A DNA stretch of 63,286 nucleotides from Candidatus Bipolaricaulis sp. (GTDB taxonomy: Bacteria; Bipolaricaulota; Bipolaricaulia; UBA7950; UBA9294), in NCBI GenBank assembly GCA_028713635.1, contig JAQTNX010000002.1, positions 1 through 63,286 on the forward strand, written 5' to 3'. Shown here one piece after another: positions 13,831-29,389 of this stretch. Below the pieces are notes generated by a model, which had not been told where the DNA came from, made no database searches, and saw only the letters and a program-made list of their open reading frames with translations. The translations under genes were made by a program, and so were the position numbers. The stretch's first letter is position 1, and every line of letters begins with the position of its first letter.

Positions 13831-13990
13831 GCGCTGTGATCGCGTCATGGTGCGGAAACGACAGCGCAACATGCCTCTTCTGATCTACATTCCTGTGCCC
13901 CGCTAAGGGGCGCTCGTCGGTTCGTCTTTCGTCGCTTTCGGGTGTGCGTGGCTGGGAATGGGCATTGCTGGCTTTGGAGTAAGGAGAGAC

Positions 13991-17155
<3,165 letters not shown>

Positions 17156-17164
17156 GAGGCCAAG

Positions 17165-18430
17165 ATGTCGACGGCGGTTCTTGGACTGCAGTGGGGCGAT
17201 GAGGGCAAGGGCAAGATCACTCACCTGTTGGCGCGCGAGGCCGACATGGTCGTTCGCTTCAACGGAGGCCCGAACGCCGGACACACCGTGATCGACCGCG
17301 GAGTCAAGTTCGGCACCCATCTGATTCCGGCCGGCGCGTTCTACTCCGGGGTGACCTCTGTCCTCGCGGCGGGGATGGTCGTCGACGTCGAGCTCTTGTC
17401 GAAGGAGATCCGCGCCGTGGCGGACCACATCGGCGAGAGGCCGCGGGTGCTTCTCGCCGAGAACGCGCACCTCATCCTTCCGTATCACCGGACCCTCGAA
17501 GAGCTGGAGGGAAGCGGCGCTCGGTTCGGAACCACGCGACGCGGGATCGCGCCGGCCTATCGCGACAAGGTCGCGCATGTCGGAGTCCGCGCCGGCGATC
17601 TCCTCGAGCCGGAGGCTCTGCGGCAGCGGATGGCATGGCGCCTCGACCTCCTCAAGCGGGAGTGGCCGGCAAGCGAGGAGATGCAGGCGTACTCCGCCGA
17701 GGCGCTGGCCGAGGGACTGCTTGCGGCTGGGAGGGAGCTGAGGGATGGAATCTGCGACGTGTCTCCCGTGGTGGACGAAGCCCTGCGGAAGGGGAGGAGG
17801 GTGCTCTTCGAGGGAGCGCAAGGGACGCTCCTCGACGTCGACTTCGGAACCTACCCGTTCGTGACGTCGTCGTCCACGACATACGGCGGGATCGGGCCCT
17901 CCCTCGGCATCGCGCGTCCGTCGATCGACCGGCGTGTGGGCGTCGCGAAGGCCTACCTGACTCGGGTCGGCGAGGGTCCGTTCCCCACGGAGCTGGAAAG
18001 CCCGGTCGGGGCAAGCCTTCGGGAGCGCGGCGGGGAGTACGGCACGACGACCGGTCGACCGAGACGGTGTGGGTGGCTCGACCTCGTGGCGCTGCACTAC
18101 GCAGCGACGTTGAACGGGATCACCGAGATTGCCCTTACGAAGCTCGACGTCCTCAACGAGATGGACGAGATTCTCGTCTGCACCGAGTACCGCATCGGCG
18201 GACGTCGCGTGGACAGGTATCCGCTCTCGGGAGAACGGCTGTCACGTTGTGAGCCGGTGTACGAGGCCGTGCGTGGCTGGAGGGAATCGCTTGGCGAGCC
18301 CGCGTCGGTGGAGGCGCTCCCCCGGGCGGCGGCGAGCTACGTGCGGCTGATCGAGAAGAAGCTTGGGGTTCCGGTGGGCATGGTTTCGTACGGTCCACGA
18401 CCGGAAGAGACGATCGGAACGACGCTTTGA
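17165..18430 (+). CDS. purA: Adenylosuccinate synthetase
   Basis: [53 protein letters not shown]. Confidence 0.97.
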
Positions 18431-18941: not shown

Positions 18942-19103
18942 CAGGTTCGCGGTATTCGGGAGTCCGTCCTTCGGACATCTGTCCCGGACCCCGTAGACAA
19001 AGTCGGACAAGCGCTTCGACACCGTTCCTTCTTCGCGGTTTCTCGCAGAGCTAGACTCCCCTCACACGTTACCAGGCTTCACAATGGGTGGTGGGGAGTG
19101 AGA

Positions 19104-19730
19104 ATGTCCGATCGAACGCGCCGTACCGCAAGGTGGGTCGTCGCCGTCGTGATTGTCGCGACGGTCGCTCTGGGATGCTCCGCTCGGCCGAAGATCGCCG
19201 TGTTCCTGCAGGCTGCGGCGGCCGTGCCGACGGCGGACTTGGAGATCCTCAGGAACTACGCCAGTCAGCGCTGCTCGGTCGTGGCCGGGTGCGACGTCAA
19301 CACTCAGGGGGACTTGATGCTCGCCCAGCGCCTGACGGGGTCGTACGTCGGCAACAGCATGACGGTCGAAGGCATGCAGCGCCTCGCCGAGGCGCTGAAC
19401 GCGGACCATGTGGTCATCCTTCGGATTATCCAGTGGGAAAGCCAGATCTCGTACCGACCCGAACGATCCCTCGTCCTCTTGGGAGCGACATCGTTCCTCG
19501 ACACCACGCTGCAGATCCTCATTTCGCCGCTGGGTCTTCTGTTCGGAATCGACAAGGTCGCGACGGTGGGAATGTTCGTGTCCGTGTTCAGCCCGAAGGG
19601 CGATGTCGAGTTCACCACGTCGGTGACATGCGAGGACCGTCCGCTGTTCTCGCTTCTCACCGCGGACCCCGTGGAAGCCGCGAAGGATGCGATTGATGCA
19701 GCTCTCTACCAGGTCACTGTGGCACTGTAA
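19104..19730 (+). CDS. Lipoprotein, possible CsgG/LpoB/TolB-N-like fold
   Basis: Signal with VALG-C lipobox. MQRLAEALNADHVVILRI resembles the TolB-N/CsgG core. Internal hydrophobic stretch. Confidence 0.65.
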   Translation: MSDRTRRTARWVVAVVIVATVALGCSARPKIAVFLQAAAAVPTADLEILRNYASQRCSVVAGCDVNTQGDLMLAQRLTGSYVGNSMTVEGMQRLAEALNADHVVILRIIQWESQISYRPERSLVLLGATSFLDTTLQILISPLGLLFGIDKVATVGMFVSVFSPKGDVEFTTSVTCEDRPLFSLLTADPVEAAKDAIDAALYQVTVAL

Positions 19731-19869: not shown

Positions 19870-22086
19870 ATGAAGGTGCGAAAGGGCAGTATTCTTAGCC
19901 TTTTCCTCCTTCTGGCGGTGGTCGTTCTCCTACTTCCGACGACGGGCTTGGCACAGGGAGACGGCTTCTACACTGTCAGTCAAGGGGAAACGCAAGTGCA
20001 GATCGAACCGCTGGCCAACGCAGCGGGCGCGGTCGCGTTCTACAAGATGACGAACATGCAGTCAGCGACAGGGCTTGAGAAGCCCAACACCGCGATTGTG
20101 TTCCTGTATCAGGACACCACGGGGGGCGTCGTCTCGCTGTTCGTCATTCTGGGTGCCGCGACCGGCACAGCGGGGTCGACGACGATGACTCTGTCCGGGG
20201 TTCCGGCGGGCGCAAGCTTCCTCGTCAAGGACGACGGAAGCGACTTCCGCGATACGTGGCAACTCACGCCGCCCACGGGCAGCATCTCGTGGACGTGGGA
20301 CCAGGGACGCGGCGACGGCATGGTGCTCGGGCCTCTTGGCACCGAGTTCTCGGTCACACTGTTCCCGCAGTTCTCAGCCGGCATCACCAGGGTTGTCTTC
20401 CTGTCCGGGAGCCTCGCGAGCCCCACGGAAGTCACGCTGAACCTGCTGGATCCGATCATTGTGGCGGGCACGCCGAACGAGCCGCCGCAGGTCGGGTTCA
20501 CGGTCTCTCCGTCGAATCCGCGTATCAACCAGCCGGTCACGTTCGACGCATCCTCGTCATTCGACCCGGACGGCCGGATTGACAAGTATGAGTGGGACTT
20601 CAACGGCGACGGCCTGTTCGACTCGACGACCACGGAGCCTACGGTCAGCTACACGTACGCGGCGAGCGGCGCAAAGAGCGTCACGGTCCGCGCGACGGAC
20701 AACGAGGGTGCGACGGCGCGGTCGACGCTGAGCGTGTCGATCGGAGACCTCGCGGTGAAGGTCACTCGAACGATCTCCACGTCGGCGGCGCTGCCCGGAA
20801 GCACGTTCCTGGTCGTCGTGCGCATGGAGCCGCAGATGGACGTCGCCGGCGTGGGTCTTCAGGAGAACCTGCCCGTGGGCTGGAAGATCAAGCCACTCGA
20901 GAACGCAGGTGCCGCGTTCAAGCGCGCGTCGGTTCAGTGGGTGTTCGTCGACCAGATTCGGGGAGGATCGACGAAGATCATCTCGTACGAGCTCACGGTG
21001 CCGCCGAGCGACCAGCTGATCGCGACGACGCTCCCCGTGTGCTTCACGCTGACGGGGACGTTCCAGGCGATGACGCCGTTCATGGAGCTGCCGGTCGAGG
21101 GAGACGCGAAGATCGAGGTCTCCACCGCTCTGCCTCTGAAGGAAGCCATCGCTCACCTCGTTCCTCGTGTCGGCCTGGACACGGAGGACACGATCGATTT
21201 GCGGCTGTCGCAGAAGATCGACCCTCAGCAGCTCAAGAGGGCGCTCGAGATGTGGCAGAACGACGAGGTCGTGCCGTGGACTCAAGGCTCGACGATCAGC
21301 CTCGAGCAGATGAAGGAGCTCTCGGCGTACGCGTACACGTGCACGCCGGTCGACCTGCCCCTGCCGCTCGTGCCGCCGGCCCGCATCTCGGCCGTCCGCA
21401 CGATCGCGACCCCGGTGCCGTGCAACAACGTCCTGCTCAACTACTACGGGCCGGGCGGCGACAAGGCGGGAAGCACCTTCACCGTGAAGGTTGAGATTTG
21501 GGCAGACCAGGACCTCTACGGCGTTGGTCTCAAGGAGGAGCTGCCGACGGGGTGGAAGGTCATTCCGATCGAGAATGACGGGCTCACCTACAAGCGCTCC
21601 CGCAACGAGTGGGTATGGCCTACGAAGCTCCCGGCCGGAGTGACGAAGACCATCATCTACCAAGTCGAGGTTCCGCAGACCGAGATGATCGAGATGGCCG
21701 CCAGCGATCCGTGCTACGCGAGCAGCAACGATCTCTACGGTGTGGTGGACTCGGCTCTGCCCTGCATGGAGGTGCCGGTTACCGGCGACAGCGGCGTCGA
21801 CGTCAGCGATTGTCTGTCCGTCCTTGTGGCGATTTCCCGCTGGGATGTGGACCACGATCGGCTCGACATTACCCTTTCCGACAGGATCTCGTTCCAGCAA
21901 GTTCAGCGGGCCATCGCCTTCTGGTTGGAGGACGAAGAGGTTCCGTGGACATGCGGCGAGACGGTTGGGTACCACATGCTGAAGGAGATCATCGCCTACT
22001 GGCTCACGGGGACGAACATCTGCGATCCACTTCCCGTGATCCCCGACGGCCCGTGTGATCCGAGCGCCTCGGTGTGCGGCGGGTAG
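19870..22086 (+). CDS. Secreted PKD protein with two tandem (cohesin-like beta-domain + helical module) units
   Basis: GGAGGT RBS. Signal peptide MKVRK...TGLA. PKD pattern FDASSSFDPDG...YEWDFNGDG. Internal repeat GVGLxExLPxGWK and ...VPWT...AY. Confidence 0.85.
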   Translation: MKVRKGSILSLFLLLAVVVLLLPTTGLAQGDGFYTVSQGETQVQIEPLANAAGAVAFYKMTNMQSATGLEKPNTAIVFLYQDTTGGVVSLFVILGAATGTAGSTTMTLSGVPAGASFLVKDDGSDFRDTWQLTPPTGSISWTWDQGRGDGMVLGPLGTEFSVTLFPQFSAGITRVVFLSGSLASPTEVTLNLLDPIIVAGTPNEPPQVGFTVSPSNPRINQPVTFDASSSFDPDGRIDKYEWDFNGDGLFDSTTTEPTVSYTYAASGAKSVTVRATDNEGATARSTLSVSIGDLAVKVTRTISTSAALPGSTFLVVVRMEPQMDVAGVGLQENLPVGWKIKPLENAGAAFKRASVQWVFVDQIRGGSTKIISYELTVPPSDQLIATTLPVCFTLTGTFQAMTPFMELPVEGDAKIEVSTALPLKEAIAHLVPRVGLDTEDTIDLRLSQKIDPQQLKRALEMWQNDEVVPWTQGSTISLEQMKELSAYAYTCTPVDLPLPLVPPARISAVRTIATPVPCNNVLLNYYGPGGDKAGSTFTVKVEIWADQDLYGVGLKEELPTGWKVIPIENDGLTYKRSRNEWVWPTKLPAGVTKTIIYQVEVPQTEMIEMAASDPCYASSNDLYGVVDSALPCMEVPVTGDSGVDVSDCLSVLVAISRWDVDHDRLDITLSDRISFQQVQRAIAFWLEDEEVPWTCGETVGYHMLKEIIAYWLTGTNICDPLPVIPDGPCDPSASVCGG

Positions 22087-22116
22087 CGCCGCACGCCGGG
22101 TGCTCCGTCGAGGGAG

Positions 22117-24321
22117 ATGAGTGTCATGAGAACGACCACCAGCACGGCGAGGGGGGTTCCCCTCGCCGTGTTCCTTCTCTTCGTAGGCCTGGCAGCCGGT
22201 TCGGTCGGAGTGCTGGGCGAAGGAACCATCCAGATTCTGCAGACGGTCGACCCGTCGCAGGTCTTTGTGACAGGAATGGGACAAGCGCCGGAGACGACGA
22301 ACGTCTCGCTCACGCTTCAGGGCATCGGCGCGACCGGGGACCGCTTCCCGGTGGACTGCATGCTGGTCTTCGACGCGTCGGCAACGGCCGAACTGGCGGA
22401 GGCGAAGCTCTTCGCCCTTGACGTCGTGGACCGCATGGGTCCGAACGACCGCGTCGGCGTCCTGTCGTACGCGGCGACAGCGCGGGTGGCCTTGCCGCTC
22501 TCCAAGAGCAAGGCGGAGATCAAGTCGGCGATTGGGGGGCTCGCGGGCGGCGACAAGTCGGCGCTCGGCACGGCGCTTCAACTGGCGCGGCGAGAGCTTT
22601 CCCAGACGGCTCGGCCCGACGCGACGATGCTCATCATCCTCTTCTCGGATGGGCAGTCGAATGTGGGACCGGACGCAAGGTCGGAGGGCAAGATCGCGGC
22701 CGAGACGGGAATCCAGATCACGTGTGTCGGCGTCGGAACCCTGATCAACCGGTCGCTTCTGGAGGAGTTCGCGGCGACGTCGGGGGGGGCGTTCGCGGCC
22801 CGCCCGTCGGACGCGGCGCTCGAATCGGTCGTCCTGCACGCCTTCGTAACGGTTGCGGCGTCCGATGTGGTTGTGGAGAAGCACATACCCGCCGGACTCG
22901 AGTGGATGAGCTCCGCGCCGGCCGCAAGCCAGGTGCGGGTCGAGATGGACGGCAGCACGACGGTCCGCGGGGTGTTTGAGCAGGTACTGCTCGGGCAGAT
23001 CCTGCGAATCGACATAAAGCTTCGCGCGACGGAGAGCGGGATCCTGCCGACGGACGACGGCTCGACGGCGACCTACAGGGATTTCCGCGGCGTGGAGCAG
23101 ACGGTGGACATCGGGGCGAATCGATTGAGCGTTGTCATGCCGAACCGCGTGCCGGAGGCTAAGTTCGCATTTGAGCCGGGGGCGCCGACCACGGCCGACG
23201 CGGTCGAGTTCCACGACGCGTCGCGCGACATCGACGGCGACAAGACCGTGGCCGCCTGGGCGTGGGAGTTCGGAGATGGGACGACGGCGGACGTGAAGGA
23301 CCCCGTCCACCGGTTCGCGGAGGTCGGCACGTACACCGTGACGCTCGTCGTCACCGACGACCGCGGGCTCGCGTCGAAGCCGTACACGCGAGAGCTCGTC
23401 ATCGGGAACGCACCTCCGACGGCAAGTTTTGCCGTCCTGGAGGCCGACTCTATGTCTGTCGTGGACCAACCGCGCGTGGGCGTCGAGGTCATCTTCGACG
23501 CAAGCGCGTCGTACGACTTGGACGGGCGCGTCGTACGGTACGAGTGGGACTTCGGGTCTGACGGCGTTGTCGATGTTTCGACGGATGCGCCGGACGTGTC
23601 GTTCACGTTCGTCGAGCCTGAAGACTACGACGTCACGCTCTACGTCACGGACGACATGGGCAGCCGGGCGACGCTCGAGAAGACCGTGACGGCCGTGTCG
23701 AGCGTCACGGCGGCGCGGACGATCGAGACGTGCCTGCCCGAGGACCGAACAGTCCAGGGAGCCACGGTCACGGTCACCCTATCGCTCCGCGCGAACACGA
23801 CGCTGAATGGGCTTGCCGTGAGCGAGACGCTTCCGGCGGGTTGGACGTTCCGATCCGTGGAGACCGACGGCGCGACGCTTCGCCAGAGCGGGACCACAGC
23901 GGAGTGGCTGTTCGTCGAGAAGTTCACGGGCACCGGCCCGGACTCGCAGCGCGAGATTCGCTACACCCTGACGGCTCCTTCGAGCGCGCCGAAGGCGGAA
24001 GCGGATCCCGTGGCGATTCGAGGCTCCGTGGGGAGTTCGTCGCCGCGGCTGCTGCAGACGATCGCCGGCGAGGATCGCGTGGTGCTTGCGAAGTACCTCT
24101 CCATCCCCATCGTGGTCTCCCGGTGGAACGTCGAGACGTCGGCGATCGACCTGTGTCTCAGAGAGCTGATCGGCTTTGACCAGATCCAGTATGCCGTTTC
24201 GCTCTGGCTGTCCGGTGCGTCGGTCCCGCACACGAACAACGGCAAGATTGACCTGGTCACGATTCAAGACCTGATTGCCTATTGGCTGACGGGAAGCTCG
24301 GTGCACGACCCGCTTCCCTAG
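22117..24321 (+). CDS. Secreted vWA + 2x PKD + cohesin-like + helical-tail protein
   Basis: Signal peptide. vWA motifs DCMLVFDAS and ILFSDGQSN. PKD motifs WEFGDG and YEWDFGSDG. C-terminus LIAYWLTGSSVHDPLP. Confidence 0.85.
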   Translation: MSVMRTTTSTARGVPLAVFLLFVGLAAGSVGVLGEGTIQILQTVDPSQVFVTGMGQAPETTNVSLTLQGIGATGDRFPVDCMLVFDASATAELAEAKLFALDVVDRMGPNDRVGVLSYAATARVALPLSKSKAEIKSAIGGLAGGDKSALGTALQLARRELSQTARPDATMLIILFSDGQSNVGPDARSEGKIAAETGIQITCVGVGTLINRSLLEEFAATSGGAFAARPSDAALESVVLHAFVTVAASDVVVEKHIPAGLEWMSSAPAASQVRVEMDGSTTVRGVFEQVLLGQILRIDIKLRATESGILPTDDGSTATYRDFRGVEQTVDIGANRLSVVMPNRVPEAKFAFEPGAPTTADAVEFHDASRDIDGDKTVAAWAWEFGDGTTADVKDPVHRFAEVGTYTVTLVVTDDRGLASKPYTRELVIGNAPPTASFAVLEADSMSVVDQPRVGVEVIFDASASYDLDGRVVRYEWDFGSDGVVDVSTDAPDVSFTFVEPEDYDVTLYVTDDMGSRATLEKTVTAVSSVTAARTIETCLPEDRTVQGATVTVTLSLRANTTLNGLAVSETLPAGWTFRSVETDGATLRQSGTTAEWLFVEKFTGTGPDSQREIRYTLTAPSSAPKAEADPVAIRGSVGSSSPRLLQTIAGEDRVVLAKYLSIPIVVSRWNVETSAIDLCLRELIGFDQIQYAVSLWLSGASVPHTNNGKIDLVTIQDLIAYWLTGSSVHDPLP

Positions 24322-24366
24322 GGGAGTGGGTCGTCGCTGCCGGGCGTGATGAAGAGGGAGGGGGCC

Positions 24367-25059
24367 ATGAAGAACGTACGACGCGTATGGATTGTCGCGG
24401 CGGCGATCGCTGTCGCGGTTTCGTGGACGGCGACGGCCGCGTGGAAGGCGGACTTCACGCCGTCCACGTACAACCCAGGCGTGGGTGAGGGCGTGAGCTT
24501 TGCCGTGTGCGAGCCGTGTTTGACCGGCGGGACGTACACGTATCGATGGGACTGGAACGGGGATGGCGTCGTAGACCTCGAGACGCGCGACGCCGTGACG
24601 ACGAACGCGTATCCGGCGGCGGGCTCCTACGAGGTAGAGCTGACCATCGTCGACAGCACCGGACGCCGGGAGTCCTGTCGCAAGGGCATCCTGGTGGGGG
24701 TCGTGCCGTCGTTCGCGGTGAGAGACGTTCTCGCGCAGGCTGACGGGGCCATCCTCGTCGTCATCAGCATCCGTGTGGTGGCGTCTTCGTCGGCGCTCGG
24801 ATTCGTGGAGACGCTGCAGCAGGGGTGGCAGGTCGAGCTGGTCGACACGGCCGGAGCGATGACGAACATCAACGCCGAAGCGCGGAAGCTTGAAGTTCTC
24901 TGGGGAAGCGCATTCGAACCCGGCGATGAGCTCGTCTTCTCGTACCGTCTCTACCCTGGGTATGCGACGACGATTTCGCGGTTCTCCGGGGAGATGAGCG
25001 GGTACGCGAGCGGAGTGCGCTTCGTGAGCGGCATGTGCGGGGTGCTCGGTCTGCCCTAG
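24367..25059 (+). CDS. Secreted PKD + cohesin-like domain protein
   Basis: Signal peptide ...ATAA. PKD pattern YRWDWNGDG...YPAAGSYEVELT. GFVETLQQGW matches the repeat of the two upstream proteins. Confidence 0.8.
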   Translation: MKNVRRVWIVAAAIAVAVSWTATAAWKADFTPSTYNPGVGEGVSFAVCEPCLTGGTYTYRWDWNGDGVVDLETRDAVTTNAYPAAGSYEVELTIVDSTGRRESCRKGILVGVVPSFAVRDVLAQADGAILVVISIRVVASSSALGFVETLQQGWQVELVDTAGAMTNINAEARKLEVLWGSAFEPGDELVFSYRLYPGYATTISRFSGEMSGYASGVRFVSGMCGVLGLP

Positions 25060-25661
25060 CGAGAGTTCGAGATTCCTCGGGGTTGATAGGAAGGGGACGC
25101 GTCCCACTCGGCGGCCGCGTCCTCTTCTTTTTCCTCGGCGTTCTCCTGGTCCACAACGATGGGGACGACGGCCCCGGATCGGCGTGCGGTCCAGAGGACG
25201 GCGATCGTAAGGCCGAGGAGCCCGATGGAGACACCAAGGGCGATCGGGAAGCTGAGCCGGAGAGGGAGGAGGTTTCCGCCGACGGCGACGACGACGGACG
25301 CTCCGCCGATCGCCGCGATCGCGGCCACGTACCGGAGAATGACCGGAGACGGCACGACGGCGGCGAAGCGCGACATCGTTCGTCCCGTGACGCTTGCGTC
25401 CCAGGCGAAGAGCGCCAAGGGAAGACTCAGAAGGCCGAAGATGCGTGCCTCGGCACTGATGGCGAGAGCGGAGCACGTGCCGACGCAGAGGAGCATCGGA
25501 AGCACGTGGAGCCGGCTCGAGGGGCGCCAAGCGGCGAGGGCGATCCAAAGCCCCCCCGTGAGGCCCGCAGCGAGAGCGAACGTCCAAGGGTAGACGAGCG
25601 CGGCGCCCGCCACGGCGAGACCGGCTGACAGCACCACGAGAACGAGCACGACGATCCTCAC
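25056..25661 (-). CDS. Multi-pass membrane protein
   Basis: About 6 hydrophobic segments. GTGA overlap with the DUF58 stop and an acidic tail. Confidence 0.7.
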   Translation of the reverse strand: MRIVVLVLVVLSAGLAVAGAALVYPWTFALAAGLTGGLWIALAAWRPSSRLHVLPMLLCVGTCSALAISAEARIFGLLSLPLALFAWDASVTGRTMSRFAAVVPSPVILRYVAAIAAIGGASVVVAVGGNLLPLRLSFPIALGVSIGLLGLTIAVLWTARRSGAVVPIVVDQENAEEKEEDAAAEWDASPSYQPRGISNSR

Positions 25662-26944
25662 GAGCGCCTCCTCCTCCCGCCTCGGTCCAGACGTGCCCGA
25701 TGAAGGGCGACGGAGAGGGGCTCCTCGGTGTCCCACGAGAGCACTCGCACGCCCCCGCGACGCATCTGGCGGATGGCCGAGTCACGTCGCAGCGAGCGAA
25801 TGCGCAGCGCAAGCGCCAACGCATCGTCGGCCTCCTCGGCGGAAGCCTGGAGGCTTTCGCTGTTCATGTAGACGACGAGCACGGAGTACCCCCGGGCGGC
25901 GAGCTGGACCGGCACGTCGTAGTCCTCATCCCTCGGCAGCGAGGAGAGGAGAATCAGCTGTGACCCCGAGGGGAAGATGGACGCCGGAATCCCCGCGAGA
26001 TCCTCGAAGGCGAAGCTTCGTACCGGCTTGGCTCGGACGATGGCGCCGAGGATGCGTTCGAGGTGGAACCGCCCTCCGGCGGGCTGGATCCAGTCGATCG
26101 ATTGGCCGTACAGAAGGAATCCGACGCGGTTCCCCTGGCGGATCATGTGGTCGGCGAGGCTGGCGGCGGCGCGGCACGCCGCCTCGAACGTGCCGCGTCC
26201 TCCGACCTCTACGTGAGCCTGTGCGCGAACGTCGAGAACCAGGGTGACGTCGGCCGTCCTCTCCTGCTCGTACTCGTTGACGATCAGGCGGTCGGTGCGC
26301 GCAAGGGCGCGCCAGTTGAGTCTCCGAACGTCGTCGCCGGGCACGTAGGCGCGACAACCGAAGAAGTCCACACCCGGTCCTGGGGCGCGAGCCATGATGG
26401 GACCGGCGAACGCGTGCGTGCGGCGGGGCGCCAGGGTCAGGGGAGGCAGCTTCTCGGTTTCCGGGATCGCAGAGACGTACGTCGAGCAGACGAGTTCGTG
26501 CTCCTGGAACGCGAGAGCGGTTCGGGTCCAGGATGCCACCGTGACGTGGTCGTGGAGATGGATCCCTCGGGTCGGTCGGAGCGTGTACGAAAGGCGAACA
26601 TCCTGGTCTCGTCCCATGGGACCTAGGTACGAGGGGATCCCTTCTTGAACGGGCTGGTCGGGCGGCACCACGTCGAGGACTCCGACGAGCGGCAGGGGCG
26701 CACCGCAGTTGGTGACCGCGACGGTGTAGCGGACGTCGTCGCCGGAGCACACCCGATGAGAGGACGGGGTTCTCGAGATGTCGAGTTCGGGATGAGGAAG
26801 CCGCATCCGCGCGACGAGCAGCGCCGCGGCGTACGCGAGGACCGGAATCGCGGCCATGAAGAGGCCGGCGTTGCGCGTGGCCAGTGCGGCGATCAGGATG
26901 CCGACGCTGATGCACGCGGCGACTGGGTATCGAGGATCGGTCAT
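25658..26944 (-). CDS. DUF58 family protein with N-terminal TM helices
   Basis: GVDFFGCRAYVPGDDVRRLNWRALAR, LIVNEYEQE, VTLVLDVR. Confidence 0.9.
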   Translation of the reverse strand: MTDPRYPVAACISVGILIAALATRNAGLFMAAIPVLAYAAALLVARMRLPHPELDISRTPSSHRVCSGDDVRYTVAVTNCGAPLPLVGVLDVVPPDQPVQEGIPSYLGPMGRDQDVRLSYTLRPTRGIHLHDHVTVASWTRTALAFQEHELVCSTYVSAIPETEKLPPLTLAPRRTHAFAGPIMARAPGPGVDFFGCRAYVPGDDVRRLNWRALARTDRLIVNEYEQERTADVTLVLDVRAQAHVEVGGRGTFEAACRAAASLADHMIRQGNRVGFLLYGQSIDWIQPAGGRFHLERILGAIVRAKPVRSFAFEDLAGIPASIFPSGSQLILLSSLPRDEDYDVPVQLAARGYSVLVVYMNSESLQASAEEADDALALALRIRSLRRDSAIRQMRRGGVRVLSWDTEEPLSVALHRARLDRGGRRRRS

Positions 26945-26948
26945 CGCG

Positions 26949-27902
26949 CTAGGAGACCTTCGGGACCGGAGTGGCCTGGACGATTCCCTCGACTACATCG
27001 CTCGTGGACGCTTGGCGGCTCCAGAACTCCGGGCGCAGGATCAGGCGGTGGGCGAGCGCCGGCACGACGAAGCGCTTGACGTCGTCGGGCAGGACGTAGT
27101 CGCGGCCGCAGAGCGCGGCCCAGGCTCGCGACAGCTTGAACAGCGCCAGGGATCCGCGGGGGCTTGCCCCGACGTAGACGCTCGTGTGCTTCCTCGTGCG
27201 TCCGACGAGAGAGACGATGTAGTTTCGAATGTCCTCGTCCACAGCGACGTCCTCGACCGCGCGCTGCATCTCGAGGAGCGCCTCGGCGGAGGAGATGATG
27301 GAGAGACTCACTTCGTCTTCCTTCCGCTCCGCGCGCCGTCGGAGGATTTCGACCTCCTCGGGCGGCTGGGGGTAGCCGACGCTCAGCCGAACCATGAACC
27401 GATCGAGCTGCGCTTCGGGGAGCGGGAACGTTCCCTCGTATTCGATCGGGTTTTGCGTGGCCATGACAATGAACGGCTTCGGGAGCGGCCGCGTCTCCCC
27501 GGTGATCGAGACCTGCAACTCCTGCATCGCTTCGAGAAGGGCCGATTGCGTTTTCGGAGTCGCGCGGTTCACTTCGTCGGCGAGGATGACGTGAGCGAAG
27601 ATCGGTCCCGGGGCGAGGGCAAACTCGTTCTTCGTACGGTCGTAGATGTGGGACCCGGTGATGTCGCCTGGCAGGAGGTCCGGCGTGAACTGGATGCGGC
27701 GGAAGTCTACGCCGAGGACGCGCGCGAAGCTCCGCGCAATCAGCGTCTTCGCGAGCCCCGGATTGTCCTCGAAGAGGACGTGCCCGCCGGCGAGGATCGT
27801 CGCCATGACTTCCATCAGGACGTCATACTTGCCGATCACCGCCTTCGAGACCTCGTCCACGACCCGGTGCGCCGTTTTCTCCACGTGGGAAATCGGGATC
27901 AT
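26949..27902 (-). CDS. moxR: MoxR-family AAA+ ATPase
   Basis: GGHVLFEDNPGLAKT, RIQFTPDLLPGD, ADEVNRATPKTQSALLEAM, ATQNPIEYEGTFPLPEAQLDRF, GASPR. Confidence 0.95.
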   Translation of the reverse strand: MIPISHVEKTAHRVVDEVSKAVIGKYDVLMEVMATILAGGHVLFEDNPGLAKTLIARSFARVLGVDFRRIQFTPDLLPGDITGSHIYDRTKNEFALAPGPIFAHVILADEVNRATPKTQSALLEAMQELQVSITGETRPLPKPFIVMATQNPIEYEGTFPLPEAQLDRFMVRLSVGYPQPPEEVEILRRRAERKEDEVSLSIISSAEALLEMQRAVEDVAVDEDIRNYIVSLVGRTRKHTSVYVGASPRGSLALFKLSRAWAALCGRDYVLPDDVKRFVVPALAHRLILRPEFWSRQASTSDVVEGIVQATPVPKVS

Positions 27903-27905
27903 TGC

Positions 27906-28448
27906 CTAGGCCTCCTCGCTCTCGCGTTCGAGGAACGCGACGGTCCTTCGGATGGAAGACTGAAACGCCGTACCGGACAGCGCACCGAGGTCCTCCCTCT
28001 CCAGGAAGGCTGCCAGGTCTGGCTCCAGCTCTCGGCAGCGCTCGCGGAAGATCGTCCACGCCTCTTCCTCGCGCATGTCGAACCGCTGCGCGTCGATGCG
28101 AACGGCCAACCGGACGAGTTGGCTCGTGACCCGAGACCTCGCCAGATGGCTCGATCGGGATTGGCGGATCGCGTCGACGAGGTACGCGAGCGTCCCCACC
28201 GAGGAGTCTTCGATCCGCGGGGTGGCGCGAGGGGCTCGCTCCGGCCGAAGCCGGTTGGCGAAGAAGAGAAGGACGGGCAACGCGAACAGGATCGGCACGA
28301 ACCAGAGGACGATCTGCGGAAGGACGGCAACCGCCTCCCAGAACCGCGCTCCGTGCCGCATGGGGATCGAGAGGGCGAACAGGGTGAGAGCAAGGAGCAC
28401 CGCGAGCTCCAGCACAACGAACGTGCCCTCCATCTTCTTTCTTCTCAT
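27906..28448 (-). CDS. Hypothetical membrane-anchored protein in the MoxR operon
   Basis: Two N-terminal hydrophobic helices. ATGA overlap with the upstream gene. Confidence 0.7.
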   Translation of the reverse strand: MRRKKMEGTFVVLELAVLLALTLFALSIPMRHGARFWEAVAVLPQIVLWFVPILFALPVLLFFANRLRPERAPRATPRIEDSSVGTLAYLVDAIRQSRSSHLARSRVTSQLVRLAVRIDAQRFDMREEEAWTIFRERCRELEPDLAAFLEREDLGALSGTAFQSSIRRTVAFLERESEEA

Positions 28449-29389
28449 GGGGTGGCCTCGGGGATGGGGTACGCGTTCGTGATCGCCGTCATGCACTGCA
28501 GCGCACGGGCGGCCAACGCTTCCTCCGGGCGGTGGCCGTAGTGGACTTCCTCGAAGAGGGTCGAGAGCTCGCCGATAGCCGCCCCATCGAGCCCGACGCC
28601 CGCCAGAGCGGCCACGAACTCGCGCGGCGTGAGGCAGCAGGGGTCGACCTTCGAGCGCACGGCGAGCGCGGTAAGCATCTGTCGGTAGCAGTGCTCTACA
28701 GCACCTCGCGCATCCCTGCCGAGGCGGAGCTCCGCGACGGCGGCGCGAACCGGTGCCAGGATTGCGTCGGTGACGTCGTCCGCCGGAGGGCGGCGCTTTC
28801 GCCGGAGGAGGCCGACGACGAGGGCGACGCCGAGGCCAAGCGCGACGACGGCGAGGATCCCCGTGATCACAAGAGCGCTCGGAGCTGTTCCTCGGCCCGT
28901 GTCGTCGCCCCCAGTTCCGAAGAGGTCGTCGATGCTCTGATATTCGGCGGGACCCAGCGGATTGCTGGTGATTGCCGAGGAACCCGGCTCCTCGGAGGCG
29001 TCCTCTTCGTCCGCCTCCGGCGACCAGTTGACGCCGAAGACGAGCACCACGGTGACCATGCCGATGACGGTGGCGACCGCCAGGAGGGCAATCCAGCGCC
29101 CGCCTTTCCGCGGCGGAAGACCTTCACGTCCGGCGTTCTTCTGGAGGAACAGGATGATGGCGAGCACGATCCCGGCGAGCAGGCCGTACGCCACAGCGAG
29201 GTCGGCCGGACGCAGGGGTTCCATGGGCTTCGCGCCTGGCGCGCTGAACAGCTGGCGGTTTGCGAGGGTCTCGTCGAACGGGCGCCCCGACGTGAACGTC
29301 ACGCGCTCCACTCCTGCGGCGAACAGGATCGCGATCACGATCAGCGCCGAGACGAGCCCTAGGGAAAGCAGAAGAACGGAGCGCCTCAT
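28445..29389 (-). CDS. DUF4129 domain membrane protein
   Basis: About 4 TM segments. C-terminus AVEHCYRQM...CLTPREF...[11 protein letters not shown] is typical of DUF4129. ATGA overlap with the aspS stop. Confidence 0.8.

What the first reader, a model, noticed from the sequence alone, without database searches (positions are those of the whole stretch)
19870..25059. Three-gene modular surface system built on a repeated cohesin-like domain and a novel dockerin-like helical module
Seen: three secreted PKD proteins share four copies of a ~120-aa beta-rich domain (R-T-I...G-x-x-x-E-x-L-P-x-G-W...W...Y-x-L; at about 20755, 21380, 23704 and 24709). Three copies are followed by a ~75-aa module: DLRLSQKIDPQQLKRALEMW..VPWT..ISLEQMKELSAY..DLPLP, DITLSDRISFQQVQRAIAFW..VPWT..LKEIIAYWLTG..DPLP and DLCLRELIGFDQIQYAVSLW..VPHT..IQDLIAYWLTG..DPLP. 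The module has two pseudo-symmetric helices ending in W, like a dockerin but without DxNxDG calcium loops. One partner carries a vWA domain; the third has the beta-domain but no tail. Inference: a cohesin/dockerin-like plug-and-socket scaffold (S-layer, sheath or prostheca coat) or a shared C-terminal sorting signal. This may be an undescribed system.
Basis: partly seen in the sequence, partly recalled or inferred. Interest (0 to 1): 0.82.

Follow-up and report, generated by a model that had tools for sequence, protein, structure and literature searches.

The report
Bipolaricaulota envelope operon, EF-hand-like module
Three neighbouring exported proteins of an uncultured Bipolaricaulota bacterium are built from known antibody-like domains (PKD and DUF11/CLIPPER, not cohesin) plus a small three-helix domain that no public library describes and that looks like a calcium-site-degenerate relative of EF-hand/dockerin modules. 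This probably marks an uncharacterised cell-envelope assembly of this deep-branching phylum.

Summary
Genes A (19870-22086), B (22117-24321) and C (24346-25059) encode signal-peptide proteins that share PKD domains and four copies of a ~125-aa beta domain. Three of those copies run straight into a ~80-aa helical module.

- **Beta domain:** it is not cohesin-like. It is a DUF11/CLIPPER (CnaA-like Ig) domain, by Pfam PF01345 and a Foldseek hit to 9IFR, with the isopeptide Lys replaced by an invariant Arg.
- **Helical module:** it has no Pfam, NCBIfam or PDB match. It is an autonomous three-helix domain (AF2 pLDDT 93) made of a duplicated loop-helix (P = 3.9e-6).
- **EF-hand link:** its first loop aligns residue for residue with canonical DxNxNGxIDDxE loops kept by remote relatives. 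The copies here have lost most calcium ligands.
- **Architecture:** the module follows its DUF11 domain without a linker, like the X-module-dockerin dyad of cellulosomes.
- **Distribution:** it occurs in 141 of 151 Bipolaricaulota genomes, but in only 141 cluster representatives among 1.84 billion proteins.

A role as a sorting signal is unlikely. Trans "plug-and-socket" docking remains possible but untested. Function and location are inferred, not shown.

The parts
19098..19730 (+). Small exported protein P0 (210 aa). It has a lipobox (LGC) in this genus and only a signal/anchor helix in more distant orthologues. It is the first gene of the conserved cluster.
   Evidence: ORF. Syntenic and 51-99% identical in L004-L014. 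The lipobox Cys is not conserved. No Pfam or PDB match. Absent at the locus of the closed genome G001.
19870..22086 (+). Protein A (738 aa): signal peptide, unknown N-terminal domain, PKD, then two [DUF11 + helical module] units and a Cys-rich end.
   Evidence: At least 120 orthologues, named only 'PKD domain-containing protein', from Bipolaricaulota/Acetothermia.
19957..20475 (+). N-terminal domain of A (~170 aa), unassigned.
   Evidence: No Pfam hit at E <= 10. No PDB sequence hit.
20476..20736 (+). PKD domain of A.
   Evidence: PF18911 E = 8e-14, residues 204-290.
20749..21126 (+). DUF11/CLIPPER-like beta-sandwich 1 of A.
   Evidence: Beta HMM E = 7e-53. Weak PF01345 hit.
21127..21375 (+). 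Helical module 1 (internal), ending in DLPLPLVP, which links to the next unit.
21379..21801 (+). DUF11/CLIPPER-like beta-sandwich 2 of A.
   Evidence: Beta HMM E = 2e-54. PF01345 E = 3.5e-4. AF2 model plus Foldseek hit 9IFR.
21808..22035 (+). Helical module 2: three helices, with the loop D-I-T-L-S-D-R-I-S-F-Q-Q in EF-hand register.
   Evidence: AF2 pLDDT 93.4, pTM 0.82. Register. Internal repeat.
22036..22083 (+). Cys-rich C-terminal extension of A (…PCDPxxxxCGG). It is predicted disordered and is less conserved.
   Evidence: pLDDT below 50 for residues 226-239 of the model. 25-62% identity in the more distant orthologues L008-L014, 88% in the close L007.
22117..24321 (+). Protein B (734 aa): signal peptide, vWA, unknown middle domain, two PKD domains, DUF11, and the helical module at the exact C-terminus.
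   Evidence: Orthologues in L004-L014 are 45-92% identical.
22357..22815 (+). vWA domain of B with a conserved variant MIDAS (D-x-S-x-T … S … D).
   Evidence: PF00092 E = 1.3e-20. Alignment of eight orthologues.
23149..23691 (+). Two PKD domains of B.
   Evidence: PF18911 E = 2e-30, two stretches.
23704..24084 (+). DUF11/CLIPPER-like beta-sandwich of B.
   Evidence: Beta HMM E = 5e-49. Weak hits to PF01345, PF10633 and PF17973.
24085..24318 (+). Helical module 3; the protein ends at …VHDPLP.
24346..25059 (+). Protein C (237 aa): signal peptide, PKD, and a divergent DUF11-like beta domain (about 24694-25056) with no helical module.
   Evidence: PKD E = 1.5e-6. Beta HMM E = 1.1e-8, independent of the model. 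C is kept next to A even in G001, where B and P0 are missing.

Best explanation
**What it is.** This is a conserved cell-envelope gene cluster of the phylum Bipolaricaulota (Acetothermia/OP1). It has four genes: P0, A, B and C. A + C form the phylum-wide core; B and P0 are present in this family.

**The proteins.** A, B and C are Sec-exported and built from stalk-type Ig-like domains: PKD and DUF11/CLIPPER. The DUF11 copies lack the isopeptide-forming Lys, which is replaced by an invariant Arg.

**The helical module.** Each DUF11 domain of A (two of them) and of B (one) continues without any linker into an ~80-aa, autonomously folding, three-helix domain.
- It is a duplicated loop-helix (helix - 12-residue loop - helix ending in W - 'VPxT' loop - helix ending in W - 'DPLP').
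- It descends from an EF-hand-pair/dockerin-type calcium module.
- Remote relatives keep DxNxNGxIDDxE. The copies here keep only D1, I8 and Gln12, so they are probably calcium-independent.

**Inferred mechanism.**
- The helical domain packs in cis on its own DUF11 sandwich. This forms a rigid dyad analogous to the X-module-dockerin (X-Doc) dyad of cellulosomal scaffoldins.
- These very strongly conserved dyads are the protein-protein contact surfaces through which A, B (which adds a metal-dependent vWA binding head) and C assemble. The product would be an envelope-associated structure: a periplasm/toga or surface layer.

**Shown versus inferred.** Shown: domain identities, internal duplication, EF-hand register, distribution and conservation. 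Inferred: cis packing (from pTM only), the assembly role and the location.
For: **Organism and synteny**
- Orthologues are named Bipolaricaulota/Acetothermia.
- IleRS-PurA-L13-P0-A-B-C is kept in L004-L014. IleRS-PurA-L13-A-C is kept in the closed genome G001.

**DUF11/CLIPPER**
- PF01345 scores 27.2 bits on A against a cut-off of 24.6. It is precomputed on most orthologues.
- Foldseek hit to the CLIPPER crystal structure 9IFR: E = 3e-5, TM 0.66 on the target. DUF11 = CLIPPER per bioRxiv 10.1101/2025.04.25.650565.
- R-T-I is invariant in the first strand, where I recall DUF11 placing its isopeptide Lys.

**Module is undescribed**
- No Pfam hit at E <= 10, no NCBIfam hit and no PDB sequence hit.
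- Foldseek of a pLDDT-93 model gives a single non-significant hit, the X-Doc chain 5G5D_B.

**EF-hand/dockerin kinship**
- The two halves align to each other at P = 3.9e-6.
- The loop is in exact register with canonical loops of remote members.
- About 20 of the 25 sub-threshold PDB hits of the family profile, including the top 20, are EF-hand proteins aligned on that loop (best E = 0.03).
- hhalign against 26 real dockerins from this phylum gives the same register, P = 0.011.

**Dyad**
- There is no linker between the last strand and helix 1.
- AF2 of beta + tail gives pLDDT 85.9 and pTM 0.77.
- 101 of 141 assessable modules have this beta domain directly upstream.

**Constraint**
- Beta and tail parts of A are 80-90% identical where PKD is ~60% and IleRS ~61%.
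- The module is present in 141 of 151 phylum genomes, and in 67 of 69 high-quality ones.
Against: - No experiment or complex prediction supports any binding partner.
- The links to dockerin and EF-hand are individually below significance (hhalign probability 3.8%, PDB E >= 0.03, Foldseek E = 6.4). The argument therefore rests on register and on the remote homologues.
- The genome has no recognisable cohesin. It does carry a separate, genuine Dockerin_1, so a docking function for this module is not required.
- None of the proteins has a recognisable outer-membrane or cell-wall anchor. In a diderm, Sec export alone would leave them in the periplasm.
- At class-level distance A (47%) is less conserved than IleRS (56%).
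Confidence: 0.6

Rival explanations
1. Trans plug-and-socket. The helical module of one protein docks into the DUF11 sandwich of another. C would be the free socket, A a bivalent connector and B the vWA-bearing end piece. The result would be a calcium-independent, cohesin-dockerin-like lattice: an S-layer or toga coat.
For: - A plus the tail-less C is the minimal pair kept across the phylum.
- The tails are the most conserved parts of A, as expected for interfaces.
- The module is of the dockerin/EF-hand type.
- A cultured member has a toga with a hexagonal S-layer whose protein is not named (bioRxiv 10.1101/2025.11.21.689855).
Against: - The beta domain is DUF11/CLIPPER, a stalk domain, not a cohesin.
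- Every tail already sits, without a linker, on its own beta domain, and AF2 places them as one unit. The 'socket' of A and B would therefore be occupied in cis.
- No multimer prediction or binding data exist.
Confidence: 0.2
2. Purely intramolecular stabiliser. The helical domain is a cap that rigidifies and protects DUF11 domains that have lost their isopeptide bond. It has no partner-binding role, and the proteins act as independent adhesins or binding proteins.
For: - The isopeptide Lys is replaced by Arg in every copy. The isopeptide gives CLIPPER its thermostability.
- The module is obligately adjacent to the beta domain, with no linker and pTM 0.77.
Against: - The tail-less DUF11 of C and 21 lone beta domains exist.
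- In haloarchaeal and other relatives the module stands next to other domains (malectin, PKD, He_PIG).
- It folds on its own.
- 80-90% identity over the whole module suggests more than a core-packing constraint.
Confidence: 0.15
3. Shared C-terminal sorting or anchoring signal, recognised by a secretion or attachment machinery.
For: - The module sits at or within 10 residues of the C-terminus in B and in many relatives. Tail 2 of A ends about 17 residues before the C-terminus.
- It ends in a conserved DPLP.
Against: - Tail 1 of A is internal. In P0125 and P0126 more than 900 residues follow the module. In subtilases and other relatives a separate T9SS sorting domain follows it.
- It is a well-folded ~80-aa globular domain, not a short signal.
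- It has no hydrophobic or charged tail, and no sorting-domain model matches it.
Confidence: 0.05

Closest known systems
DUF11 / CLIPPER domain (Pfam PF01345; crystal structure 9IFR; bioRxiv 10.1101/2025.04.25.650565)
   Same: The repeated beta domain matches PF01345 and folds like 9IFR (E = 3e-5). It carries an 'LPxGW' motif that, as I recall the family consensus, corresponds to DUF11's 'LPxG'. Like DUF11, it sits with PKD domains in signal-peptide surface proteins of bacteria and archaea.
   Different: The isopeptide-forming Lys is an invariant Arg. Single-domain scores are below the Pfam cut-off. Each copy in A and B is fused to a helical domain, a combination not described for CLIPPER.
Type II X-module-dockerin dyad (X-Doc) of cellulosomal scaffoldins, e.g. 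C. thermocellum CipA, PDB 5G5D
   Same: An Ig-like sandwich is followed directly by a small duplicated loop-helix domain that packs on it. 5G5D_B is the only Foldseek hit of the tail model.
   Different: The hit is not significant (E = 6.4). There is no Pfam Dockerin match. Calcium ligands are mostly lost, and an extra N-terminal helix is present. No cohesin partner exists in the genome, and there is no link to polysaccharide degradation.
Dockerin type I (PF00404) and non-cellulosomal dockerins
   Same: Two homologous loop-helix repeats, each with a 12-residue loop followed by a helix. The register is the same in hhalign against 26 genuine Bipolaricaulota dockerins.
   Different: hhalign P is only 0.011 (probability 3.8%). 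The loops read D-T-S-S-Q, D-R-S-D-Q and D-C-R-G-Q at positions 1/3/5/9/12, and the second loop is P-x-T-x-G. The helices end in an invariant Trp. Genuine dockerins occur separately in the same genomes.
Canonical EF-hand pairs (ALG-2, polcalcins, lanmodulin)
   Same: Helix-loop-helix with a 12-residue loop. Remote family members carry DxNxNGxIDDxE. About 20 of the 25 sub-threshold PDB hits of the family profile are EF-hand proteins aligned on this loop.
   Different: Three helices rather than four. All hits are above E = 0.03. The window's copies have Gln at position 12 and non-ligand residues at positions 3/5.
MoxR/DUF58/vWA ('Bat'-type) clusters
   Same: A vWA protein (B) lies beside a MoxR AAA+ ATPase and a DUF58 protein (25056-28496, minus strand).
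   Different: The two gene sets converge on each other. The adjacency is lost in L010, L014 and G001. B is an exported multi-Ig protein, not a BatA/BatB-type membrane vWA protein.

Membership tests
DUF11 / CLIPPER (PF01345) | Profile match at or above the curated score | tested here: met
   A as a whole scores 27.2 bits against a cut-off of 24.6. Single domains score 15-21 bits, below the cut-off. PF01345 is precomputed on most of 120 orthologues. The match is marginal but consistent.
DUF11 / CLIPPER (PF01345) | CnaA-like Ig beta-sandwich fold | tested here: met
   The AF2 model (pLDDT 85.9) hits the CLIPPER crystal structure 9IFR at E = 3e-5, TM 0.66 on the target.
DUF11 / CLIPPER (PF01345) | Intramolecular isopeptide bond (Lys in the first strand, Asn/Asp, catalytic acid) | tested here: not met
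   The first strand reads x-R-T-I, with Arg invariant across 27 sequences. That this is the isopeptide-Lys position rests on my recollection of the DUF11 consensus. The describing paper states that many DUF11 members lack the bond, so this does not exclude membership.
Cohesin (PF00963) | Profile match | tested here: not met
   No hit on A, B or C or on the isolated beta domains at E <= 10. No cohesin anywhere in the genome at E <= 0.01.
Cohesin (PF00963) | Nine-stranded jelly-roll fold resembling solved cohesins | tested here: not met
   No cohesin among the top 50 Foldseek PDB matches. The best matches are TRAP-beta, CLIPPER and integrin calf/thigh domains.
Dockerin type I (PF00404) | Profile match | tested here: not met
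   No Pfam hit on the three tails at E <= 10. hhalign against 26 genuine dockerins of the phylum: probability 3.8%, P = 0.011.
Dockerin type I (PF00404) | Two homologous loop-helix (F-hand) repeats | tested here: met
   Half 1 against half 2 of the family alignment: hhalign local probability 87%, P = 3.9e-6, in register.
Dockerin type I (PF00404) | Calcium-ligand residues at loop positions 1, 3, 5, 9 and 12 in both repeats | tested here: not met
   Loop 1 reads D/T/S/S/Q (tail 2), D/R/S/D/Q (tail 1) and D/C/R/G/Q (tail 3). Loop 2 is P-x-T-x-G with a hydrophobic residue at position 12.
Dockerin type I (PF00404) | A cohesin partner encoded in the genome | tested here: not met
   The genome is only 88% complete, so absence is not proven.
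EF-hand superfamily | Helix, 12-residue loop, helix, with D1 … hydrophobic 8 … acidic 12 | tested here: inconclusive
   Remote family members have DxNxNGxIDDxE aligned column for column with D20, I27 and Q31 of the tails. PDB hits of the profile are mostly EF-hand proteins, but at E = 0.03-2. Calcium binding cannot be tested here.
von Willebrand factor A (PF00092), protein B | Profile match and MIDAS residues | tested here: met
   E = 1.3e-20. The D-x-S-x-T … S … D variant is conserved in eight orthologues.
Known C-terminal sorting domains (LPXTG, PEP-CTERM, PGF-CTERM, T9SS CTD) | Profile match at the C-terminus | tested here: not met
   No such Pfam or NCBIfam hit on A, B or C. In relatives a T9SS CTD follows the module as a separate domain.

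The most novel reading that the evidence does not exclude
The DUF11 sandwich plus the degenerate EF-hand-pair module is a calcium-independent docking dyad specific to Bipolaricaulota. Through it A (bivalent), B (monovalent, with a vWA head) and C (acceptor only) would self-assemble into the regular surface layer or toga coat seen on the first cultured member of the phylum. Dyad-bearing subtilases and giant adhesins of the same phylum would be hung on the same scaffold. That would be a second, independently evolved cohesin-dockerin-like system.
Probability: 0.15. Interest if true: 0.8.

Novelty: new variant of a known kind. Interest (0 to 1): 0.55.

Why it matters
**The phylum.** Bipolaricaulota is a deep-branching, almost uncultured phylum with an unusual toga-like envelope and an S-layer whose proteins are unnamed.

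**The cluster.** It is near-universal in the phylum and sits beside housekeeping genes. Within the family its core protein is more conserved than ribosomal protein L13 or IleRS. It is therefore a strong candidate for a structural envelope component.

**The helical module.** It is a domain family missing from Pfam, NCBIfam and the PDB. It links canonical EF-hand loops (in sporadic haloarchaeal and other surface proteins) to a calcium-site-degenerate form. This is a clean case for studying how a calcium switch becomes a constitutive scaffold.

**If the dyad proves to be a docking unit,** it would offer a new orthogonal protein-assembly pair. With the β domain assigned to a known family, the open questions are the partner, the location and the role of calcium.

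Tried and rejected
- **Tail, family and sequence libraries.** Pfam at E <= 10 on the isolated tails gave nothing. NCBIfam on A-C and on nine relatives gave nothing covering the module. PDB sequence searches with the 13-sequence and 51-sequence profiles gave nothing significant.
- **Tail, fold.** Foldseek on the tail-only model gave one hit at E = 6.4.
- **Cohesin reading.** Rejected on profile and on fold.
- **Isopeptide-stabilised CLIPPER.** Rejected: Arg replaces Lys.
- **Sorting-signal reading.** Rejected on position and fold.
- **MoxR/DUF58 partnership.** Judged incidental because the adjacency is not conserved.
- **P0 and the N-terminal domain of A.** No Pfam or PDB match.
- **Promoter/terminator scan.** At chance level.
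- **Spread in Halobacteriota.** Only 2 of 121 genomes match. Five unrelated genomes reached through PKD loci gave none.


Full report
**Where and what.** The window has 61-70% G+C in 2-kb windows. It belongs to an 88%-complete metagenome-assembled genome of 2.3 Mb. Orthologues of the genes in question are labelled Candidatus Bipolaricaulota, Acetothermia or Bipolaricaulia, and some NCBI records mislabel them Thermotogota. On the + strand, after ileS (13958-17155), purA (17165-18430) and rplM, lie four co-directional genes:
- P0 (19098-19730, 210 aa, lipobox in this genus).
- A (19870-22086).
- B (22117-24321).
- C (24346-25059).

The gaps are 139, 30 and 24 nt. A MoxR / DUF58 / membrane-protein set converges on them from the minus strand at 25056-28496.

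**Checking the observation.** Pfam finds PKD in A, B and C and vWA in B.
- BLASTP shows the repeated unit: A 204-500 matches B 431-734 (E = 4e-37), and A 507-723 matches B 530-734 (E = 4.6e-28).
- A profile of the beta domain made only from A and B orthologues finds both copies in A, the one in B and, independently, the one in C (E = 1.1e-8).
- The three helical tails (21127-21375, 21808-22035, 24085-24318) find each other at E = 1e-14 to 1e-17. They are the only copies in the genome.
- Fifteen columns are invariant over 13 sequences from three paralogue groups: D20 L23 I27 Q31 A35 W39 V45 P46 T48 A63 Y64 T67 P74 L75 P76.

**The beta domain is DUF11/CLIPPER, not cohesin.**
- The isolated domains give weak hits to PF01345 (DUF11), NEW3 and bMG10, all Ig-like families. 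A as a whole passes the PF01345 cut-off (27.2 against 24.6 bits). The precomputed annotation of most of 120 orthologues lists PF01345.
- An AF2 model of A residues 501-739, built on an alignment of 27 paralogous and orthologous units, has pLDDT 85.9 and pTM 0.77.
- Its Foldseek matches in the PDB all fall on the sandwich: TRAP-beta, the 'CLIPPER domain' 9IFR (E = 3e-5, TM 0.66 on the target) and integrin calf/thigh domains. No cohesin is in the top 50.
- The paper behind 9IFR renames DUF11 as CLIPPER. It describes it as a CnaA-like stalk domain of fibrillar adhesins and archaeal S-layer proteins, often but not always locked by an intramolecular isopeptide bond.
- Here the first strand reads R-T-I, with an invariant Arg where I recall DUF11 placing its isopeptide Lys. 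These are therefore isopeptide-less members.
- No Pfam cohesin exists anywhere in the genome.

**The helical module is undescribed, rare and phylum-centred.**
- No Pfam, NCBIfam or PDB sequence match covers it.
- An exhaustive HMMER search of 1.84 billion cluster representatives found only 141 proteins at E <= 1e-3, and 69 at E <= 1e-10.
- The strong hits that carry names are again Bipolaricaulota/Acetothermia. They include A-like and B-like proteins, S8 subtilases, and giant SprB/PKD proteins in which the module lies far from the C-terminus.
- Within the phylum, 141 of 151 sampled genomes carry it (67 of 69 high-quality genomes). Counts are usually 2-6 copies and reach 32.
- The weak tail of the hit list matches only the last two helices. 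It includes a Halobellus limi 'PKD domain-containing protein' and metagenomic malectin, CARDB, beta-helix and T9SS proteins.
- A sample of 121 genomes drawn from the phylum of the Methanoculleus genome G151 (Halobacteriota, by my inference from GTDB; the tool gives no group name) held it in only 2.

**What kind of fold.**
- A tail-only AF2 model on a 51-sequence alignment is very confident (pLDDT 93.4, pTM 0.82). It shows three helices and folds without the sandwich.
- Foldseek finds nothing significant. The only hit, at E = 6.4, is the X-module-dockerin chain 5G5D_B.
- The two loop-helix halves are homologous to each other (hhalign local probability 87%, P = 3.9e-6).
- Remote members carry textbook EF-hand loops before the first W-helix: DANDNGVLDDSE, DTNGNGIIDDDE, DRNDNGLIDDDE, DDNHNGRIEDHE.
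- In the alignment these loops fall column for column on D20 … I27 … Q31 of the window's tails. That makes those residues loop positions 1, 8 and 12.
- The window's copies read D-I-T-L-S-D-R-I-S-F-Q-Q, D-L-R-L-S-Q-K-I-D-P-Q-Q and D-L-C-L-R-E-L-I-G-F-D-Q. The second loop is V-P-x-T-x-G. Most calcium ligands are gone, and position 12 is an invariant Gln.
- About 20 of the 25 sub-threshold PDB hits of the family profile, including the top 20, are EF-hand proteins aligned on this loop (best E = 0.03).
- hhalign against 26 genuine Dockerin_1 domains collected from this phylum gives the same register, but only P = 0.011.

I conclude the module is an EF-hand-pair/dockerin-type domain with degenerate calcium sites. 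I hold this at roughly 65-70%, since each single link is weak. Genuine dockerins exist separately in the phylum (38 of 61 genomes; one in this genome at contig C3:30252-30413). The module is therefore not simply the local form of dockerin.

**Architecture and constraint.**
- The last strand of each DUF11 domain runs directly into helix 1, with no Pro/Thr/Gly linker. The Pro-rich 'DLPLPLVPP' comes after the module.
- The beta + tail model has pTM 0.77, too high for two freely hinged domains of 145 and 80 residues. This is an inference, because PAE was not available.
- Of 141 assessable modules in the hit set, 101 have this beta domain immediately upstream.
- The closest architectural analogue is the X-Doc dyad of type II dockerins.
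- In A, the DUF11 and tail parts are 80-90% identical to orthologues in which PKD is about 60%, IleRS about 61%, PurA about 65% and L13 71-80%. At class-level distance (G001) A drops to 47% against IleRS at 56%.
- In the closed genome G001 the locus is IleRS-PurA-L13-A-C, without P0 and B. A plus the tail-less C is therefore the core pair.
- The vWA of B keeps a variant MIDAS (D-x-S-x-T … S … D) in all eight orthologues examined.

**Mechanism: committed reading and rivals.**
- *Best reading (0.6).* A, B and C are exported envelope proteins whose DUF11 + EF-hand-like dyads are rigid, calcium-independent interaction units. Through them the proteins assemble. B contributes a metal-dependent vWA binding head.
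- *Trans plug-and-socket into DUF11 (0.2).* Not excluded. The conserved A + C pairing fits it, but each socket in A and B appears occupied in cis.
- *Pure intramolecular cap replacing the lost isopeptide (0.15).* Also possible.
- *Sorting signal (0.05).* Contradicted by internal copies, by separate T9SS domains downstream in relatives, and by the globular fold.

Location is open. Only Sec signals are seen, no anchor. The organism is probably diderm with a toga-like outer layer and an S-layer whose protein is unidentified. An LptF/G-LptD gene in the same window was noted by another reader.

**Comparison with earlier notes of this scan.** Agents working on orthologous operons in other Bipolaricaulota genomes reached similar readings: a calcium-degenerate dockerin/EF-hand module, X-Doc as the closest known, and a four-gene envelope operon. 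I treated these as leads. The register, internal-repeat, distribution and synteny tests here were run independently and agree. One note says P0 folds like the TraT/CsgG/PelC ring-forming lipoproteins.

**Verdict.** The beta domain is a known family. The helical module is an undescribed variant of a known kind. The operon is a good candidate for an uncharacterised envelope structure. Function is inferred only.

Noticed in passing
window 22141-22172 (+): A 14-bp, GC-rich hairpin (AGCACGGCGAGGGG-GGTT-CCCCTCGCCGTGTT) lies just after the stop of A, inside the signal-peptide codons of B. It could damp read-through or translation from the strongly conserved A into B. The scan's terminator count was at chance level.
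   Followed up: no
window 19098-19730 (+): The small exported protein P0 is very conserved (mean column identity 81% over six orthologues) and has no Pfam or PDB match. Its lipobox Cys exists only in this genus. It is missing at the locus of genome G001.
   Followed up: partly
window 19957-20475 (+): The ~170-aa N-terminal domain of A has no family or solved relative by sequence.
   Followed up: partly
window 25056-28496 (-): A MoxR (AAA_3) ATPase, a DUF58 protein and two membrane proteins form a Bat-like set that converges on gene C. The adjacency to the vWA protein B is kept in L004-L009 and L011-L013, but not in L010, L014 or G001. It is probably incidental.
   Followed up: partly
G000 contig C3:30252-30413 (locus L069): The same genome encodes a genuine Dockerin_1 domain (30.9 bits, over the cut-off) in a 357-aa ORF, yet has no detectable cohesin. 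Genuine dockerins occur in 38 of 61 sampled Bipolaricaulota genomes.
   Followed up: partly
genomes G146, G056, G019: Some Bipolaricaulota genomes have expanded the helical module to 32, 15 and 12 copies. In G019 the copies lie in many different proteins. This suggests a family of proteins sharing one docking or assembly element.
   Followed up: no
L104 (G001:C1:1044500-1062500): In a closed genome of another family the locus is IleRS-PurA-L13-A-C only, without the vWA protein B and without P0. The minimal conserved pair is A plus the tail-less C.
   Followed up: yes
proteins P0134, P0141, P0146, P0149, P0155: Short proteins of 80-144 aa consist of little more than one helical module. They may be free-standing copies or fragments from contig ends.
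   Followed up: no
protein P0192: A metagenomic T9SS protein carries a genuine dockerin, a genuine cohesin and, separately, this helical module after a NEW3 domain. The three are therefore distinct modules that can coexist in one protein.
   Followed up: no
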